From NCBI RefSeq assembly GCF_032062105.1, contig NW_026918875.1, positions 372,001 through 436,000 on the forward strand: a DNA stretch of 64,000 bases. The letters are read 5' to 3'. A program made the position numbers and the translations under genes. This document shows positions 55,247 through 64,000 of this stretch, in pieces. How positions within the stretch are numbered: the stretch's first letter is position 1; the number at the start of each line of letters is the position of its first letter. This DNA is from Saccostrea cucullata. Its lineage: Eukaryota. A model generated the notes under the pieces. The model did no database searches, was not told the DNA's origin, and saw nothing but the letters and a program-made list of their open reading frames with translations.

Positions 55247-58200
55247 CATTGTTCGCACAGAATAATTGTTAATTTGTTAAGCACAGAAGGTACCCTAAAA
55301 CAACTTACTTATGCTGCAGTCTGTACGAGAAGTGGCTCCAGTGCCTTGTGTGGTGTACCCAGAGGGACACGGCTTACAGTCAAACCCTTCAGTTTTGTCT
55401 CTATAGGTACCCTGCAGACACACTTGACAAACACCTTGTGTCTCAAACTGTCCAGAGGGACAATCCCCTAAAAAATAGAAATACAAATCCAAATGTTGAG
55501 GTGGTTGAAATCACATGCATGATGCTAAAAAATATTCTGTTGTTACTGATTACCTGGTAGCTTAAGGCTGGGTTACTATCATATTTTGCAGAATACAGGG
55601 TACATATAATATACCACTTTATTATATACCTAATGTGTATCACTCAATTTTACTGTAGATTTAACGCAATAATGTGATGTCGTGATCTGACTTTCCCAAT
55701 CACCACACTGTGGTTTTCTGAATCCATATCACCACTATCTGAAACTGATGACATAGTACGCAGAAATATTTCTTGCGCTTTATAAAAAGTCCCGTGTTAT
55801 AATAATATATATATATAGCTATTGTTTAATGACATAACAAAAACATCTTCTTAAGATAGTATATATTATACTGCTATTACATAATGGATCTCTAAAGGTT
55901 TATTTTAATATATTTAGTATCGAATACTAAAATACTCGGGGATGTATATTAATAAATTTATCATTATACCTGTTTAGTAAATTTCATACCTGGCGAGGCG
56001 GAGCCGAGTCTGTTATGAAATTTACTAACCAGGTATCATCCCATACCCTGTCACTAAAAGTCTATGTAACGAATTTACCCCACCGATGAAACATTTACGT
56101 TTTATTTGTGGTTTATAAATGATTTTCTCTGCTAAATGCTTCATCACGCTTATACTGCGCCTATTATGACGTCACATTGTGTTTGTTACGTAATGCATCG
56201 ACCGGGTATGGATTTACAACTGACCGGGTATAAGTAATCCACCGCCTTCACGTGACAGACTTTAACCAATCGTAAGCCAGGATTTCATGGAAAAATCAAC
56301 AGAGGTGGGGTAATTTTAAATATTTCTGAGCTTATATATTTATTAATGCATTAAAACATTGATTTTAAAATATATATATAGGGTTTCCTAAATGACCGTT
56401 ATATACAGTAATTACCGATGTGCCTACCTGGCTTTTCTCACCTTCGACTGTTTTCTACCCTAATGTTTAGTTTGCTTTAATTATTTGTTTTCATTGAACA
56501 CATTGTTTAAGGTCCATTATATTTGAATAAATTAAATAATTTTGTCAATTCTCCAAGAAGCCGTAGAGACAGACGATATTGCATGTGCGATTGTTGATAT
56601 GGATGCGTTTGATTACATGCCAATTAATGCCAATGGTTGAAGGCAAATGCTTTAAAAATCTTATGTTCTCGTAATTTTATGAAATCTCGGATCAAAAAGC
56701 ACGTATAAATCCTCTCTGTTGTAGGATTATATAAGTTTATACCGTACATGTAGCTCTGACAACTTATTTCGTCAAAGGCATCAAAGCTACATATACAATT
56801 AATGGATTATTTGAAACAAAAACACTGTGAACAATTTATGATTTTATGTGATAAATAAATTGAACTTAAAAAGAATTTCGTCGCGTACAAAGTGGTCATA
56901 ATTATATTATTATAACGCATTGTTTTATATACTACAAGAGTTTACCATGTTTTACAGTTATCAATTAACTTGTTCCTATTCATTTACACTTTACCGAACC
57001 CGGGTCCTACTAATAAAAATTGACCGATTTGGCATCCCTAGTAATTATCCATTGTTTTATATACTAAGACATTCTATAAATAGAATCCTACTTAGACCAG
57101 GTACCAGTACATGTATTAAAATGTAATAGTATCATCCAAGAAAATCTTAGGTACAGTAGTGCTAAAGGTCTTCGAGGAATGGACACCACTTACTGATGCA
57201 GGGACATAACTCTGACAAACCTCTGTTGCACTCTGTAAAATATTTATTGGATAAATAAGGTACATCACGACTTACTGGTGCAATTATCCCTGCTGGTCAT
57301 TCCTCTTGCTCTGGTTGTGTAGCCTTGTGGACATTGGGTACAGCTGTCCTGCCATTTATATTCATTGAACGTTCCCACTGGACAATCTGTACACTGGTTA
57401 TCTGCTGGATTTCTGTACTGACCAGGGGAGGTGCAGTTTCCTAAAAGTAGAAGAGAGCAAAATCATATACTCTATGTGGTATAAAAGAGAAAACATCGCT
57501 GCCTAAATGAAAAAAATTAATAAATTAATAGAATGATGTTTCAGTTCAATATACCAATTAATTTCTATCTGAATTTTACAATGATGCAAGGAGCTTCAGT
57601 CTTGTGCAAAGTAAAAGATTTACAGGTGTTCAAACTCATCCCAAAAAGTACAGTATATGGGGAGCTAAAAATTGGAACAAGGGGCCTTAAGTTTTGATCT
57701 TAATATTCAAGTAATTCTATTGGGACTAGAAGGATTGATGTAACCAGGGATTTGAAAGTAAATGGATGTGGGTTTTTTTTTTCTTTGAAAAGACTAAATT
57801 GCTGGAAAATAAAATTTGAGGGCAAGAACATTATTTTCCAATTAGATAATGTATTTTTGGAGATGTATTATCCAAAACAATCCTGAATTCTCTTCTGCTT
57901 TGGCAAAATGTATCCTCAACAAATGGACAACATGAAGCTAAGTATGTGTATGCAGAGTTAAGTATTGAAATTTTATACCTCATTGGTGCATTGTGGAATT
58001 ACATTCATTTGCTTATATGAAGAAATGTGTAATCTGACTTACTGATGGTACAGTTACTATCACTAGTGGCCCGGTCAGCTGAGGTGATGAAATCTACTGG
58101 ACACATCTGACATGTTAGCTGAGTGCGATCCGTTTTATCTCTGTAGTAGCCACGCAGACAACCATTACAGCCCTTAGTTACAGGATCATACTGATCACCA

Positions 58201-61200
58201 GAGGGACAATCCACTGAAGAAAAAATCATAAAACATGATTAAAACTTTTGACTTTTATTAATTACAAAATTTAATATACTCTTGTTTGTATTAGTGATAA
58301 ATATTGTAAAATTTTCAAAGTCCCCCTTTTTTTATCCATTGAAAACAATTAAACAACCCTCAATTATCATTAAATTTTGTTACAGTTGCGGTATGTTTTT
58401 TTGTCTTTGACTTTCACAAACCTCTTCTCGGGACTGTTATAGTTTGATTATATGCAACTTATTTCATGGTCAAAATTCTTAAGTTGCAATTGGAGAAAAA
58501 TTTCAAACTGACTATATAAATAACTTTAACTTGTTCAGTAACTTGCACCATTTGACAAGTCTGGGGTTAACAAAGAAGGACTGAAAGCTTCAAACTCACC
58601 CACACACTCGTCGAGACTGGTGGCTCCCATTTTCTGTGTCACAGCCTTGTTAGCAGGACAATTTACACAAGATGTCTGCCATTTATCTGGCTGGTATGTA
58701 TCATAAGGGCAAAGCTCACACTTATTGTCTTTAAGATAAGATCCAGGGTTGCAGGCAGCTACATATAAAAGAAGGAGGGTATGAATACTTTTCTATTGGT
58801 GTTTTACTTTGCAGCAGTTGTAATTTGATAATAATACTACACTATTTGAAATACAGCACACAAAAGAATTTCCATCCATTTAAATTTGCCAATGACAGCA
58901 TACTGATTATGCATTGTTGAAAAACATTTTTATAACTGACCACTTGTCTTTTAAAATATTTTCCATTGCAATAGAGATATATAAATCTCAAGATATTTCA
59001 TGATCCCTGGGGCTTTGTCATCACTGTTCAAATTCAAAAGGGAATTAATTTTTCATATACAGTTCAGAAAATGTCTAGAAATACTGACGGACAGAGCAGT
59101 TTGCTGCCAGAGTGGCTCCCTCGGCTTGTGTTATGAATCCTGAAGGACATTCCTTACACAGGGCAGCAGCATACTCAGTCTTGTAATATCCAATCTTACA
59201 CTTGCTGCAGTTTCCACCGATGTCTTCATAACCAGGACTACACTGTACTGTAATTAAAACAGAAGAATTAAAACGTCAGCAGAATAAAACTGAAGAGTTT
59301 ACAAGATGTAAAATCTCTGTCTGAAGGTTTGTTTTTGGGGTCATATTTATATTTTAAAAGTTAACAATTCAGGAAAGAGTAAAATTTCTGTGGATATACA
59401 CACCAAATTTCCTTTAATGAATGTATATTGAAAATCAGGGTCTGCGGGAGAGAAATTCCTATAACGTTAGATCTCTAGACGATTGTAATAAAAAACTTTT
59501 AAATATGACCCTGTATTACAATCTTACATTGACACATGCTGAGGGAGGTCGATCCGGTGGACTCAGTGGTTTTGTCTGTGGGACACTGAACACAAGATGT
59601 CTGCCATCGCTCCGGCTGGTAGAAACCCTTGGCACAAGGCTGACACTGGTTGCTATTATCTCTATAATGTCCAGCAGAACAATTGGCTGTTGGATGAAAA
59701 CCAAACATAATGAACAGAGATGAAAAACACGTCTTTGCAAAGAAATACCTGCTAGTACATGTATAAAACTTAAGGGGATTTTTTGGGGCTCCTCTTTTCT
59801 GCAGTTCTAACATATTAAAACTTTATAAACATAACAATTAAATTGGAAAAAAAAATCAAGGAACTGAAAATTGTAAATATCTCTACATAAATGAAAGCAG
59901 AAGTTAGCATTCATTGTCCAATACAAATAAAATGAATCAATGAGAAAGCTTTTAAGTTGCATTCCCCTGGAAAAGCATCCTCGCAAAAAAACATACAAAG
60001 AAAAAAAGTCTACCTATTGTACAGTCTGTTTTTGCAGTAGATCCATTGTTGGCGGTGATGAATTCCACAGGACAGAGAGTACACATGGAGAACTTATCTT
60101 CATTGTTATCTTTGTAGTATCCCACTGTACAAGTAACACAAGCTCCCCCTGTCTTCTCCTGGCCAGAGGGACAGAATGCTGAAGAATATATCAATGGTTT
60201 ACTTACTAAGATATGATATTGCATTCAGACTATACAATTATTTAGATCGTCTTCAGTTCATCATAGAGAATTGACGAGTATCAACATACAAAGCAATCTT
60301 ACTTTCACAGTCTGTCTGTTTGGTGGAGTTGACGTCGCGGGTGTATGTGTTGGCTGGACAGTCTAAACACGATGACTGGTGGGGATTGGGCTGGTACTGC
60401 CCTCTCAGACATCCATCACAGCCTGTGTCACCCGTCTGTCTCTTTGTTCCTGCTGGGCAATCCCCTGAAGATGAAAATAAGGATCGAGAGCTTTGTCAAG
60501 GTGTCAACAAAAATTACAGAACTTGCTAAACAAAGATCTCTTGGGAAATTTAGATTCTTGATAATAACATTACAACTGATTAGTATAGGTACAGTATGTG
60601 AGGAATAGTGGAATACAATTTTGTGCCCTTTGGCCTTCAACTCTGTAAACCATTGTAATTCGTGGCAAAATTTTTTCTTTTATGATGTATGGTCTTGACA
60701 AAGAAGAATTTCATTCATCTGAATGTATTACAATAAACTCCTCCGTGGTAGTTGTTACTTACTGACGGTGCAGTCCGAGACAGAATCTGATCCAGTAGCG
60801 GGAGTGACATAGTCCACGGGACACTTTGTACAGTTATTGAACTTGAAATCTGTGTTTGTCTTGTAGTAACCAATAGGACAGTCATCACACCTCTGAAGTT
60901 GTTCATTACGGACCTTCCCAGACTCACAGAACACTGGAAATAAAGCAAAGTTCAATATTGTCTTACCATTTATTAAATCTGCCAATTTAAAGACTTTTTT
61001 CCCATTTTTGCTCAAAATTTTCAAGATTTTAAATAGTGTTGGCAAATTGGACGATTTTTAGTAACCGGTTACTCGCTTCATCTTCCGATCGAGTACCCGT
61101 ACTCGGATGATTTTTCGTGAAAGTATCCACATCTTTTATTTATCTTATGCTTTACTTATCGGTAGTAGTAATACACAAATATACTGTATATATATGGACA

Positions 61201-64000
61201 TTATATTAACAATAAACACATGCGATATTGTCAACGAATTTTTATTTTAGATGAAAGAAAATAAGGAATTTGACACACGAAGAGGACAAATAAAGACATC
61301 GTCAATCACCATCTCACAATTGCTTTCCTTATGCTTTCCTTAATTTTCAGCCCCCGAAATATGTCGCTATCAAGGAGAATAATAATTATCTACATATTCC
61401 TTAATTAATAATTTTGTTGAGATTTTGAATCAGCTGTTCTTTCTTACAACTCCAAGCTTAATTTGTCTGTGGCGGCATAACGTTAAATTATCAAATGAGG
61501 TAATCATAACTCAGGACTTAAACTGTTGTATACCCCCAAGCAATCAAAGCTTTTAATTATATAAAGTGTGAAAACTAATCAAAACAATTTGATCCACAAC
61601 AACCATGTATTAGATCAAGTCTAACGGTACCTGAAACAAGGGAAATGTGTAAATATACATTTATAAATGATGAAACAATCATTTTATATGCATTTACTAT
61701 GTAAATTTTTTTCATGCGAGTAACCGAATAGCAGTTTTACTAACTGATACTCGCATCGTTCGACGGTTAACCGGTTAACCGGGTACTCGTTGCCAACACT
61801 AATTTTAAATATACATCAGAATGTTGGTAAAAACACATAAGAATGTCCAAAAAAGATAAACATCATTTTGGGAAATTATGACTTAGCATCCATATTGTGT
61901 TTACAAGGTTCTCTATATATCAATAGAATATGGATCCTTTTTTGTACCTTTACAGTCAGATGACTGAGTGGAGGCTATCTGATGAGTACTATAACCAGCG
62001 GGACAAACGGTGCAGTTCTCCTGGTCGGCCTGACTCTGATAAGTACCGTAAGGACAGGGGTCACAGCCATTGGCGGTGGCATTGGGGCGGTAACCGGCAC
62101 CACATCGGACTGTAAGAGAAAAATCAATGTAAACCAACTATTACTCGGGACAACTTTCATTTCTGATTCATCAGTCTGAACAATTTTCATTGTTGAAGAA
62201 GAATTATACACAAATAACAAAATTACCTTAAAGGTTACGTATTATAAGGACTTTTTTTTAATTGTTCAAAAGTAGGAAAATGTATAATAATTACAAGGGA
62301 ACTAAATTTAACCCCATTTCACAAAAGTATCAGGTCCTTAAGTCATATATAACAATTCAGGTTAATCCAATATTTGGCTAATGCCTGTATAAACCAAAAG
62401 TTGTATTCTGACATTTGCCAGCACTTACAAATTGAGCAGTCATCAATGGAATCAGATCCTGTTGTGGCGGTTAATTTTCCTCCAGGACAGGCTACACATT
62501 TGCTTGTTGGGTCTATGGAGTTGTCCTTGTAAAATCCTACTTTACAGTTAACACAGGTCAGAGAACTGGTACTGTTGTCTACTTCTTGTCCACTCTCACA
62601 GAAGACTGCACAATAAAATTACAATGTACAATGTACACAGAAACGGCCAGACAAAAAAACATAATTAGATTCTAATTTGTATCTATTTTGGGATGGAGCA
62701 GGGCTAAATATACTCAATGATACATTCAAACTATTGGATGGAGACACTATTGTCAGATTTTGGGGTGGAACAGTGCTAATACTTACAGATACAGTCTGAC
62801 TTTTGTGTGGAGCCTTTATTGAGGGTCATGTATCGTACGCCACCACAGGATTTACAGGAGGTCTGCCATTTTTCGTCTTGATACTCTCCCTTAAGAGAAA
62901 GTTTTGGAATCTTGTAAATGTTATATACGAGGGGTGATCAAAAAATTCGCAAACTTATTGAATAACTTCCAAAAAAGAAATGATATAGGGTTCTCCACTT
63001 CTGTAAGTTCCCTGGAGGCAAGAAGCTGGAAAAAATTTTGTAATCAAGTGAGAAATTATCTCATTGTTTGGCAATGTGACATTTAGGATAATGAACTTTT
63101 TAAAAATTATGTTTTTAAAAAGATTTTTGACATGTAATTTGAATGCTAGCACAACCATATTCCTATATCTGTAAATGATAACACATAATTAAATCTTTAA
63201 ATGTCTACTTACTGAGTGAGCAGTTAGCTATGGAGGTAGACCCCGGTTATTACTTACTGAGTGAGCAGTCAGCTATGGAGGTAGACCTGGTTGTTACTTA
63301 CTGAGTGAGCAGTTACCTATGGAGGTAGACCCCGGTTATTACTTACTGAGTGAGCAGTCAGCTATGGAGGTAGACCTGGTTGTTACTTACTGAGTGAGCA
63401 GTCAGCTATGGAGGTAGACCCAGTCGTTGGAGTCGTCTTGTCAGATGGACACGTGACACACACAGCTGTAGTTCCCAGAGTTCTGTATTTACCCAACGGA
63501 CAACGTACGCAGGTTCCATTGGGGGCCAGCTCAAAACCAGGATTACAGTCATCTGCAATTTGCAAAAAATACTTTTTTTATTACTGTTTGTGTACTTAAA
63601 AAAAATATTTAAGCAGCTTTTTAGCAGACCAAAATCTGCCAATTCATGAATACCATAAATAAATCATTGATACATGTGTAAATCAGCATATGGCATGGAA
63701 GTTTGAAGCACTAATTCATGATTATGCTTATGTTGGCACTAAAATTTGAATCTGCTGATTTATGTTCACAAACAGTTTTATTAAACAAACCAATAAATAT
63801 TTAGAGAAGGTTTTGAAATATTGTAAATAGTTAAATGTTATAAATTATAGTTACTTACTGTAGCATTCACTTTGAGAGGTGGATTTAACCGCTCGAGTTG
63901 TTTGACCCACTGGGCACGGGTCACAGTAAAACATTCCGGACTGGTTCTGGTAGAAGCCCACCTGACAAGGTTCACATCTGCTTCCTGTCTGGTAATGGCC
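50921..64000 (-). CDS. Multi-exon type I membrane protein: GCC2/GCC3 (ephrin-receptor-like) Cys-rich repeats, 2 EGF, TM, Tyr-rich tail; 5' part lies outside the window
   Basis: 19 intact exons with GT-AG sites join in frame: 63859-64000, 63391-63552, 62429-62605, 61948-62109, 60763-60933, 60303-60464, 60014-60178, 59528-59686, 59089-59247, 58600-58758, 58043-58213, 57276-57440, 55309-55467, 53198-53362 (repeats), 52592-52708 and 52076-52183 (EGF), 51687-51804 (TM), 51323-51513 and 50921-50946 (tail). Confidence 0.9.
51323..51513 (-). CDS. Cytoplasmic-tail exon (RPEKYSHH...AYHNPGFQ)
   Basis: tttcag acceptor and gtgag donor, phase 2-1. Confidence 0.85.
51687..51804 (-). CDS. Transmembrane exon (VIIASVTAGAALMILAILIVCCVA-RAR)
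   Basis: Hydrophobic stretch followed by basic residues, gtaag donor. Confidence 0.88.
52076..52183 (-). CDS. EGF-like exon 2 (CDLGYCVHGTCVKSPKLLCQCGTAYLGDRC)
   Basis: Six-Cys EGF spacing, phase 1-1. Confidence 0.88.
52592..52708 (-). CDS. EGF-like exon 1 (CDAGNNNCHLAASCTPTSNSFTCQCNQDFQGDGTNC)
   Basis: EGF_3-type spacing, phase 1-1. Confidence 0.9.
52670..52874. repeat. 97-bp tandem duplication spanning the EGF-exon splice acceptor
   Basis: Units start at 52670, 52767 and (partial) 52864. Confidence 0.92.
53386..53593. mobile_element. TA-flanked CTGT..ACAG MITE, intronic
   Basis: TIR ctgtaaaatcacatattttcatgggg / ccccacgaaaattaatgatttcacag. Same family as 43020-43315. Confidence 0.85.
53867..55245 (+). 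mobile_element. Cg170/CvA-type Helentron-associated element with a ~166-bp satellite array, intronic
   Basis: acaagaggcccatgggccac...gctcacctgag 5' end, about 5 full monomers of ~162-167 bp plus partials, (GACG/GACA)n, and a 3' hairpin gagccttcggctc-aggtgagctaaaa. Confidence 0.92.
61034..61801. mobile_element. hAT-type non-autonomous element, intronic
   Basis: 12-bp TIR tagtgttggcaa, exact 8-bp TSD attttaaa, subterminal taaccgg repeats. Confidence 0.88.
62787..63025 (-). pseudogene. Disrupted GCC2/GCC3 repeat exon (pseudo-exon)
   Basis: Intact acceptor plus SCLQGTYRSGE, and KGEYQDEKWQTSCKSCGGVRYMTLNKGSTQKSDCI plus a gtaag donor, are separated by ~97 foreign nt with an in-frame TAA. The CxxC is missing. 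Confidence 0.85.
63206..63421. repeat. Five copies of a 44/45-bp unit containing an exon 3' end and its splice donor
   Basis: tacttactgagtgagcagtcagctatggaggtagacc units start at 63206, 63251, 63295, 63340 and 63384. Confidence 0.95.

What the first reader, a model, noticed from the sequence alone, without database searches (positions are those of the whole stretch)
62787..63025. Broken repeat exon inside an otherwise intact gene, rescuable by in-frame skipping
Seen: ~97 nt, including a mariner-TIR-like tacgaggggtgatcaaaaa at ~62926, replace the CxxC-coding segment. This gives a 239-nt exon with a stop at 62955-62957, while both splice sites remain intact. The A/B alternation predicts an A exon exactly here. 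Because the flanking exons are phase 1, skipping yields an in-frame protein one repeat shorter, whereas inclusion gives a null or truncated product. Inference: a recent loss-of-function or repeat-loss allele caught in the act.
Basis: partly seen in the sequence, partly recalled or inferred. Interest (0 to 1): 0.7.

Follow-up and report, generated by a model that had tools for sequence, protein, structure and literature searches.

The report
Two-haplotype chimera breaks one repeat exon
One exon of a giant cell-surface protein gene is broken in this assembly by a 99-base patch made of a transposon end and a copy of a nearby intron, whereas four other samples carry the exon intact, so the break is likely an assembly mix-up of two haplotypes, or else a private dud allele.

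Summary
The sequence observation holds: exon 63025-62787 (minus strand) is 239 nt, keeps AG/GT, and stops at 62957-62955. Public reads give the normal form: a 165-nt exon in 6 of 7 runs laid (4 of 5 samples), so 99 nt replace 25 nt. The patch is not an insertion into the exon. It is 64 nt of one end of a ~960-bp non-autonomous mariner, its TA, and 33 nt matching another allele of the intron 0.9 kb upstream. It is therefore likely a transposon-intron junction taken from a second haplotype. It lies almost exactly one element length from that intron site (851 nt against 849-905), and similarity to the closest RNA sample drops across it (9 of 941 against 12 of 276 differences). I read this as an assembly chimera at a heterozygous insertion (0.55), or a real template-switch or recombinant null allele (0.33). 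No laid run shows the broken form. Skipping is in frame by arithmetic, but no skip junction was listed, and no carrier's RNA was available. The gene is single-copy and uninflatable-like. Low interest until the source reads are checked.

The parts
62787..63025 (-). Broken Ephrin_rec_like repeat exon, 239 nt (165 nt in other samples)
62992..63025 (-). Intact 5' part of the exon (34 nt); 62992 is one letter shared with the element
   Evidence: joints to 62992 in X1, X9, X10; element copies
62928..62991 (+). 64-nt solo end of a ~960-bp non-autonomous mariner-type element (terminal inverted repeat of about 30 nt plus subterminal DNA); the rest of the element is absent
62926..62927 (.). TA next to the terminal repeat; also covered by the intron-allele match
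62890..62925 (-). Copy, in the same orientation, of the start of the intron 63553-63858 as another allele has it; 62890-62892 are shared with the exon's 3' part (3-nt overlap)
   Evidence: X9 record 22, joints 63567->62890 and 62927->63851; alignment and shuffles
62787..62892 (-). Intact 3' part of the exon (106 nt), PF07699
62955..62957 (-). Premature TAA in the acceptor frame, inside the element end
63800..63843 (-). The assembly's own, diverged version of the copied intron stretch; the inferred empty insertion site is near 63843
63391..63552 (-). Upstream repeat exon (162 nt, phase 1-1); differs from both X1 alleles at 7 and 9 of 137 letters
62429..62605 (-). Downstream repeat exon (177 nt, phase 1-1); differs from X1 at 1 of 177 letters
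63206..63421 (.). Tandem array (44/89-bp period, 4.8 copies) of the upstream exon's 3' end and donor
51273..64000 (-). 3' part of an uninflatable-like gene: repeat exons, two EGF-like exons, a hydrophobic membrane-spanning-type exon and a tail; it continues about 37 kb beyond the window (C-type lectin exon near C1012:472,900)

Best explanation
The 99-nt patch is the end of a mariner element with its TA and 33 nt that match another allele of the upstream intron, and it was likely spliced into this exon by the assembler, which would have mixed the two haplotypes of a diploid that is inferred to be heterozygous for a ~960-bp insertion in that intron. Shown: what the patch is made of, the intact 165-nt exon in other samples, the single copy of the locus in the assembly, and a step in similarity to sample S1 across the patch. 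Inferred: a second haplotype with the whole element at the TA near 63843 (not seen in any record); reads of that haplotype, aligned without a 960-nt gap, put the element's far end on this exon; the consensus kept about 100 nt of them and changed haplotype there. On this reading the animal's gene is intact on both chromosomes and there is nothing to rescue.
For: Intact exon in X1, X2, X3 and X1, X4, X9, X10, and in a more distant relative, P0004; broken form in 0 of 7 runs. The letters beside the element's TA are intron letters: an X9 contig anchored on both flanking exons was laid on 62890-62927 rather than on the assembly's own intron, so the source is not the assembled intron. Distance from the empty site (63843) to the left junction (62992) is 851 nt; element length minus the 64-nt remnant is 849-905 in the 14 of 16 delimited copies that are 900-1000 bp; 25 of 32 two-ended copies are of that size. 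A toy banded alignment put the element end at 63030-62828, in or at the edge of this exon, in 28 of 28 trials with those copies (this restates the length match and is not independent of it). X1 differs from the assembly at 9 of 941 exon letters 3' of the patch and 12 of 276 5' of it (Fisher p 6e-4). The locus is present once, with no second haplotig. A solo end this short is unusual: 0 of 38 other copies end within 120 nt. Heterozygous transposon insertions are common in oysters (abstract of 10.64898/2026.02.10.705023; that this animal is a bivalve is my recalled impression, not tested). Artificial chimeric haplotypes are a reported assembly error (passage in 10.1101/2021.07.02.450803).
Against: No reads of the assembled individual were available, and the element-bearing intron allele was found nowhere. 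The length match was noticed after the fact, and the copy closest to the remnant (L002, 63 of 64 letters) is only 562 bp, which would land in the upstream exon instead. The junctions are sharp, with 1-nt and 3-nt overlaps, as repair junctions are. The rest of the gene reads cleanly (817-aa open chain), so the consensus is otherwise good. The step in similarity is not unique: X3 has patches with 15 of 159 and 10 of 127 differences elsewhere in the gene, so divergent blocks segregate anyway. The counts behind the Fisher test come from the rows that searches showed, not from all exons.
Confidence: 0.55

Rival explanations
1. A real, rare null allele. A break in the exon lost 25 nt and was repaired by template switching onto the transposon-intron junction 0.9 kb upstream on the homologous chromosome (or on the same chromosome before a later crossover), copying 99 nt and returning at short microhomologies. 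The mRNA would include the exon, stop early and likely be degraded by nonsense-mediated decay; any product would lack the membrane anchor. It would survive as a recessive in a heterozygote.
For: Small deletion plus templated insert with 1-nt and 3-nt overlaps. Both splice sites are unchanged and the donor scores with the gene's best (10.0 in a leave-one-out matrix), which favours inclusion. Template switching and microhomology joining at meiotic breaks are described (passages of PMC7615360). Clean consensus elsewhere.
Against: It needs two coincidences that the artefact explains at once: the break one element length from the template, and a haplotype boundary at the same place. The templated insertions of PMC8421209 are defined as inverted copies from within 100 bp (passages); this one is direct and 850-900 nt away. 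Seen in 0 of 7 runs. Fly uif nulls die as late embryos (passage of PMC12867482), so such an allele should be rare if the gene is as important here (inference).
Confidence: 0.33
2. One reading: a real allele that is rescued at the RNA level, either by skipping the exon (63391 joined to 62605, one repeat shorter) or by splicing out part of the patch as a new intron (62966-62890, 77 nt, leaving a 162-nt in-frame exon without the CxxC).
For: Both routes keep the frame. Indels can cause exon skipping by destroying splicing enhancers (abstract of PMC6731291). The cryptic acceptor at 62889 scores 2.5, within the range of the gene's true acceptors (1.6-11.9).
Against: It needs the allele to be real. 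The cryptic donor at 62966 scores -0.7, below 16 of the 17 true donors (a crude matrix from 17 sites). No skip joint among the 12 joints, though those samples carry the intact exon, so this does not test a carrier. The exon is conserved in length and cysteines in a more distant relative, which argues against a drift towards loss.
Confidence: 0.1
3. A plain mariner insertion into the exon that later lost most of its length.
For: The 25 lost letters hold one TA (table 5c), and the family is abundant.
Against: The letters beside the element's TA are not the exon's but the intron's; there is no second end and no duplicated target in the exon; 0 of 38 other copies are cut so short.
Confidence: 0.02

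Closest known systems
Chimeric or haplotype-switch consensus errors at heterozygous structural variants in collapsed assemblies (10.1101/2021.07.02.450803, passages seen)
   Same: One copy of the locus, sequence from two haplotypes joined, a coding break not seen in other samples.
   Different: Not verified against source reads; the aligner behaviour I propose is inferred and only modelled with a toy script.
Templated insertions of polymerase theta end joining or MMBIR (PMC8421209 and PMC7615360, passages seen)
   Same: Short deletion replaced by copied nearby sequence, 1-3 nt overlaps at the junctions.
   Different: Direct orientation, template 850-900 nt away and on another haplotype; longer than the usual theta insertions (size recalled, not from a call).
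Non-autonomous Tc1/mariner elements (MITE-like), mobilised by PF01359 transposases
   Same: About 30-bp terminal inverted repeats, TA on both sides, no long frame, same terminal repeats as transposase-bearing elements in this genome.
   Different: At this locus only one end of 64 nt is present, and its TA flank belongs to an intron, not to the exon.
Drosophila uninflatable (Uif) (PMC3340373 and PMC12867482, passages seen)
   Same: Very large single-pass protein with C-type lectin, CUB, Sushi, HYR and EGF modules.
   Different: 16 Ephrin_rec_like repeat exons in a row before the last EGFs, plus PAN and WxxW modules; no FA58C domain among the exons scanned; orthology not tested by a tree.

Membership tests
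Non-autonomous Tc1/mariner element (the family) | Terminal inverted repeats at both ends | tested here: met
   32 of 38 other copies have the second end within the locus fetched
Non-autonomous Tc1/mariner element (the family) | TA target site | tested here: met
   TA at this end in 35 of 38 copies, at the far end in 31 of 32
Non-autonomous Tc1/mariner element (the family) | Terminal repeats shared with a transposase-coding partner | tested here: met
   4 of 20 PF01359 loci have a pair of similar ends; in L039, L046, L050 five of six ends differ from the window's by 1-2 of 24 letters
Non-autonomous Tc1/mariner element (the family) | No intact transposase frame | tested here: met
   Longest stop-free stretch 67-175 aa in 16 of 16 delimited copies
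Mariner insertion into this exon | Both ends present and exon sequence flanking a duplicated TA | tested here: not met
   One end only; the flank matches an intron allele, not the exon
Templated insertion (TMEJ/MMBIR) | Microhomology at the junctions with a small deletion | tested here: met
   1 nt at 62992, 3 nt at 62890-62892, 25 nt lost; overlaps this short also arise by chance or from alignment
Templated insertion (TMEJ/MMBIR) | Template inverted and within 100 bp (definition used in PMC8421209) | tested here: not met
   Direct orientation, 850-900 nt away, other allele
Templated insertion (TMEJ/MMBIR) | Present in the DNA of an individual | not testable with these tools
   No run of the assembled individual was identified; 0 of 7 runs show it
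Assembly chimera | No source read spans the junctions; both haplotypes intact | not testable with these tools
   Only contigs of other samples could be laid
Assembly chimera | Locus collapsed to one copy, with material of two haplotypes | tested here: met
   Single copy; filler from another intron allele and step in similarity. A recombinant chromosome would look the same.
Uninflatable-like protein | C-type lectin, CUB, Sushi, HYR, EGF modules in one large gene with a membrane-spanning segment | tested here: met
   Pfam hits on single exons; hydrophobic exon at 51829-51686 read directly. The exons 5' of 65471 and 3' of 57276 were not joined by RNA here.
Uninflatable-like protein | Two FA58C domains (PMC3340373) | tested here: inconclusive
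   None among 22 frames scanned; the frames were chosen by G+C content, so exons may have been missed
Uninflatable-like protein | Orthology by phylogeny | not tested
   No full-length relative was retrieved; the profile search did not run
Frame-rescuing exon skipping | Symmetric exon whose removal keeps the frame | tested here: met
Frame-rescuing exon skipping | Skip junction in RNA of a carrier | not testable with these tools
   No carrier among the runs; no 62605->63391 joint in the 12 joints

The most novel reading that the evidence does not exclude
A real germline event in which a break in a coding exon was patched with a transposon-intron junction copied from the homologous chromosome 0.9 kb away, at the very point where two divergent haplotypes were joined, leaving a symmetric exon that is skipped. 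It would show how a heterozygous transposon can knock out a neighbouring exon without inserting into it, and how a repeat can be trimmed from a large adhesion-type protein in one step.
Probability: 0.1. Interest if true: 0.45.

Novelty: not a real feature. Interest (0 to 1): 0.15.

Why it matters
If it is an artefact, it is a useful warning: in a collapsed assembly of a heterozygous animal, a short transposon end plus a diverged copy of DNA one element length upstream can fake a loss-of-function allele, and that signature can be screened for. If it is real, it is one private null or repeat-loss allele made by a known class of repair, with an unusual donor (the other haplotype). Neither opens a new kind of system. 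The rating 'not a real feature' follows the best reading (0.55); if source reads confirm the patch, it becomes a new member of a known kind.

Tried and rejected
No RNA holder was listed as such; X1-X3 are labelled 'DNA?' but their contigs skip introns at CT..AC ends, so I treat them as spliced RNA. 7 of the 11 listed runs were laid; X5-X8 (same samples as laid runs) were not. X11 includes the exon's 3' part but shows no joint across the patch, so it is uninformative on the middle. Fixed species-wide loss or an ancestral long exon: rejected, four samples and a more distant relative have the 165-nt form. A paralogue or second haplotig holding the intact exon or the element-bearing intron: none found. 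Exact search of metagenome contigs for the filler-element junction: 0 matches, no evidence either way. Rescue by the four extra donors in the 44-bp array: rejected, all four extensions hold stops. Full-length relatives for repeat counts: not obtained (searches found only single-exon frames or nothing; the profile search of cluster representatives did not run because the queue was full). Cluster look-up gave no names. Earlier scan notes: none near this place or by words. Five paper searches were for background; none was aimed at this locus, so I make no claim that it is absent from print. Supplements were not read.

Full report
The observation. On the minus strand, 63025-62787 is a 239-nt exon with a normal acceptor and donor; the frame set by the acceptor stops at TAA 62957-62955, and the 3' 106 nt read as the second half of an Ephrin_rec_like repeat in another frame. 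It lies in a row of 16 repeat exons (15 found by the scan between 64762 and 53198, plus this one), all phase 1-1. The 15 others join into an open frame of 817 aa; with the broken exon the frame closes at residue 183.

The host gene. Single exons match C-type lectin, LDLa, CUB, Sushi, EGF, HYR, PAN, WxxW, laminin G (weak, below cut-off) and Ephrin_rec_like families, and a hydrophobic exon at 51829-51686 precedes a short tail. This is the layout of Drosophila uninflatable as listed in PMC3340373 (passages), except that I found no FA58C domain among 22 frames scanned and made no tree; I call it uninflatable-like. It is single-copy in the assembly. Spliced contigs confirm the introns between 57439 and 65376. 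Fly null mutants die as late embryos (passage, PMC12867482).

The normal exon. Seven of 11 listed runs were laid, all as contigs. Six of 7, from 4 of 5 samples, join 62892 or 62893 to 62989 or 62992 with 21-25 other letters between: X1, X2, X3 and X10 as spliced contigs, X4 and X9 as genomic ones. X11 is uninformative in the middle. The normal exon is 34 + 25 + 106 = 165 nt, in frame, and the 25 letters, read by hand from table 5c, encode the missing CxxC. A more distant relative has the same exon with the same length (P0004). So 99 nt replace 25 nt and the intact state is ancestral. No listed contig carries the broken form. None of the runs looks like the assembled individual: X4 and X9 differ by about 7 in 100 letters, and X1 shows two alleles of exon 63391-63552, neither like the assembly. 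No joint 62605->63391 is among the 12 joints; one search showed 15 of 45 joints. As these samples have the intact exon, this does not test skipping in a carrier.

What the patch is. 62928-62991 is one end of a repeat family (929 candidates, 40 scored). Of 38 other copies fetched, 35 have TA at this end, 32 have the second inverted end, 25 of those are 900-1000 bp, and none is cut within 120 nt. They have no long frame and share their terminal repeats with PF01359 mariner elements of 1.2-1.3 kb in this genome. The remaining 33 nt resemble the start of the intron between exons 64014-63859 and 63552-63391: 30 of 37 columns, reached by 0 of 1000 shuffles. An X9 contig anchored on both of those exons was laid on 62890-62927 rather than on the assembly's own intron, so the filler and the TA are another allele of that intron (the number of differences in those 38 letters was not shown). 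The simplest reading is that the whole 99 nt is one junction, element end plus TA plus intron flank, from a haplotype with the element inserted near 63843. That haplotype is inferred: X4 and X9 lack the element there, and searches of the assembly and of metagenome contigs did not find the junction elsewhere. A direct insertion into the exon is rejected because the flank beside the TA is not exon sequence.

Artefact or allele. Two further facts need explaining. First, the patch starts 851 nt from the empty site, and a full element minus the remnant is 849-905 nt (14 copies): the patch sits where the element's far end would fall if the two haplotypes were laid side by side without a gap. A toy banded alignment does this in 28 of 28 trials, landing at 63030-62828, which only restates the geometry. 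Second, X1 matches the assembly closely 3' of the patch (9 of 941 letters differ) and less well 5' of it (12 of 276; p 6e-4; counts taken from the rows shown, using the closer X1 allele), while X10 shows no such step. An assembler collapsing a diploid that is heterozygous for the insertion would give both at once. A real template-switch repair would give the sharp junctions with 1-nt and 3-nt overlaps, but needs both facts as coincidences, unless repair and crossover were one event. Against the artefact: the length match is post hoc, the closest copy to the remnant is 562 bp, X3 has equally divergent patches elsewhere (15 of 159 and 10 of 127), and the rest of the gene is clean. I put the artefact at 0.55, a real null at 0.33, a real allele rescued by splicing at 0.10, and a decayed direct insertion at 0.02.

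If the allele is real. Both splice sites are unchanged, so inclusion is the default; the stop lies far upstream of many junctions, so decay of the mRNA is expected from general knowledge, and any protein would lack the membrane anchor. Skipping keeps the frame. One internal route also does (77-nt intron 62966-62890), but its donor scores -0.7 against -0.8 to 11.7 for 17 true donors in a crude matrix. Indel-induced skipping is known (abstract, PMC6731291) but is not shown here.

Comparison and verdict. The locus works like either a haplotype-mixing consensus error (passage on an artificial chimeric haplotype in 10.1101/2021.07.02.450803) or a templated insertion (passages of PMC8421209 and PMC7615360); it fails the inverted, within-100-bp definition of the former paper. 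Heterozygous transposon insertions are abundant in oysters (abstract only, 10.64898/2026.02.10.705023); that this genome is a bivalve's is my recalled impression from its repeats, untested. Nothing here is a new kind of system. Interest 0.15; the source reads decide it.

Noticed in passing
window 63206-63421: Tandem array (44-bp unit, 89-bp higher order) of the 3' end and donor of exon 63391-63552, giving four spare donors; every extension holds a stop. X4 and X9 have no cover at 63178-63319.
   Followed up: partly
window 63553-63858: The intron is 306 nt here and of like length in X4, but about 118 nt in X9; 63575-63730 is an old dispersed repeat at about 70% identity to many places.
   Followed up: partly
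window 59089-59247 and 59560-59686: Run X3 has contigs with 15 of 159 and 10 of 127 differences here but 0-2 in the next exons: short, deeply divergent blocks within one sample, perhaps mixed individuals or introgression.
   Followed up: no
window about 52820-52670 (-): The acceptor and first 39 nt of an EGF exon are duplicated 97 nt upstream of the real copy, a possible decoy acceptor.
   Followed up: no
window 33261-34703 (-): 481-aa open frame with one C2H2 finger (below Pfam cut-off); its N-terminal motif recalls the NocA/Elbow/ZNF503 family (name recalled, not tested).
   Followed up: partly
window 44340-46800: AT-rich array of 21-bp units, more than 80 copies, with long inverted matches inside the array.
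   Followed up: no
window 54034-55124: About seven copies of a 166-bp unit inside an intron of the gene; recalls an oyster satellite carried by Helitron-type elements (recalled, not tested).
   Followed up: no
L054, about C1012:481,970-484,330 (-): Exons of a gene that looks like a SAM-domain sphingomyelin synthase-related protein, 5' of the uninflatable-like gene (read from the translation; name recalled).
   Followed up: no
L012:648-2509: One element copy is followed by two further copies of its end at about 470-bp spacing.
   Followed up: no
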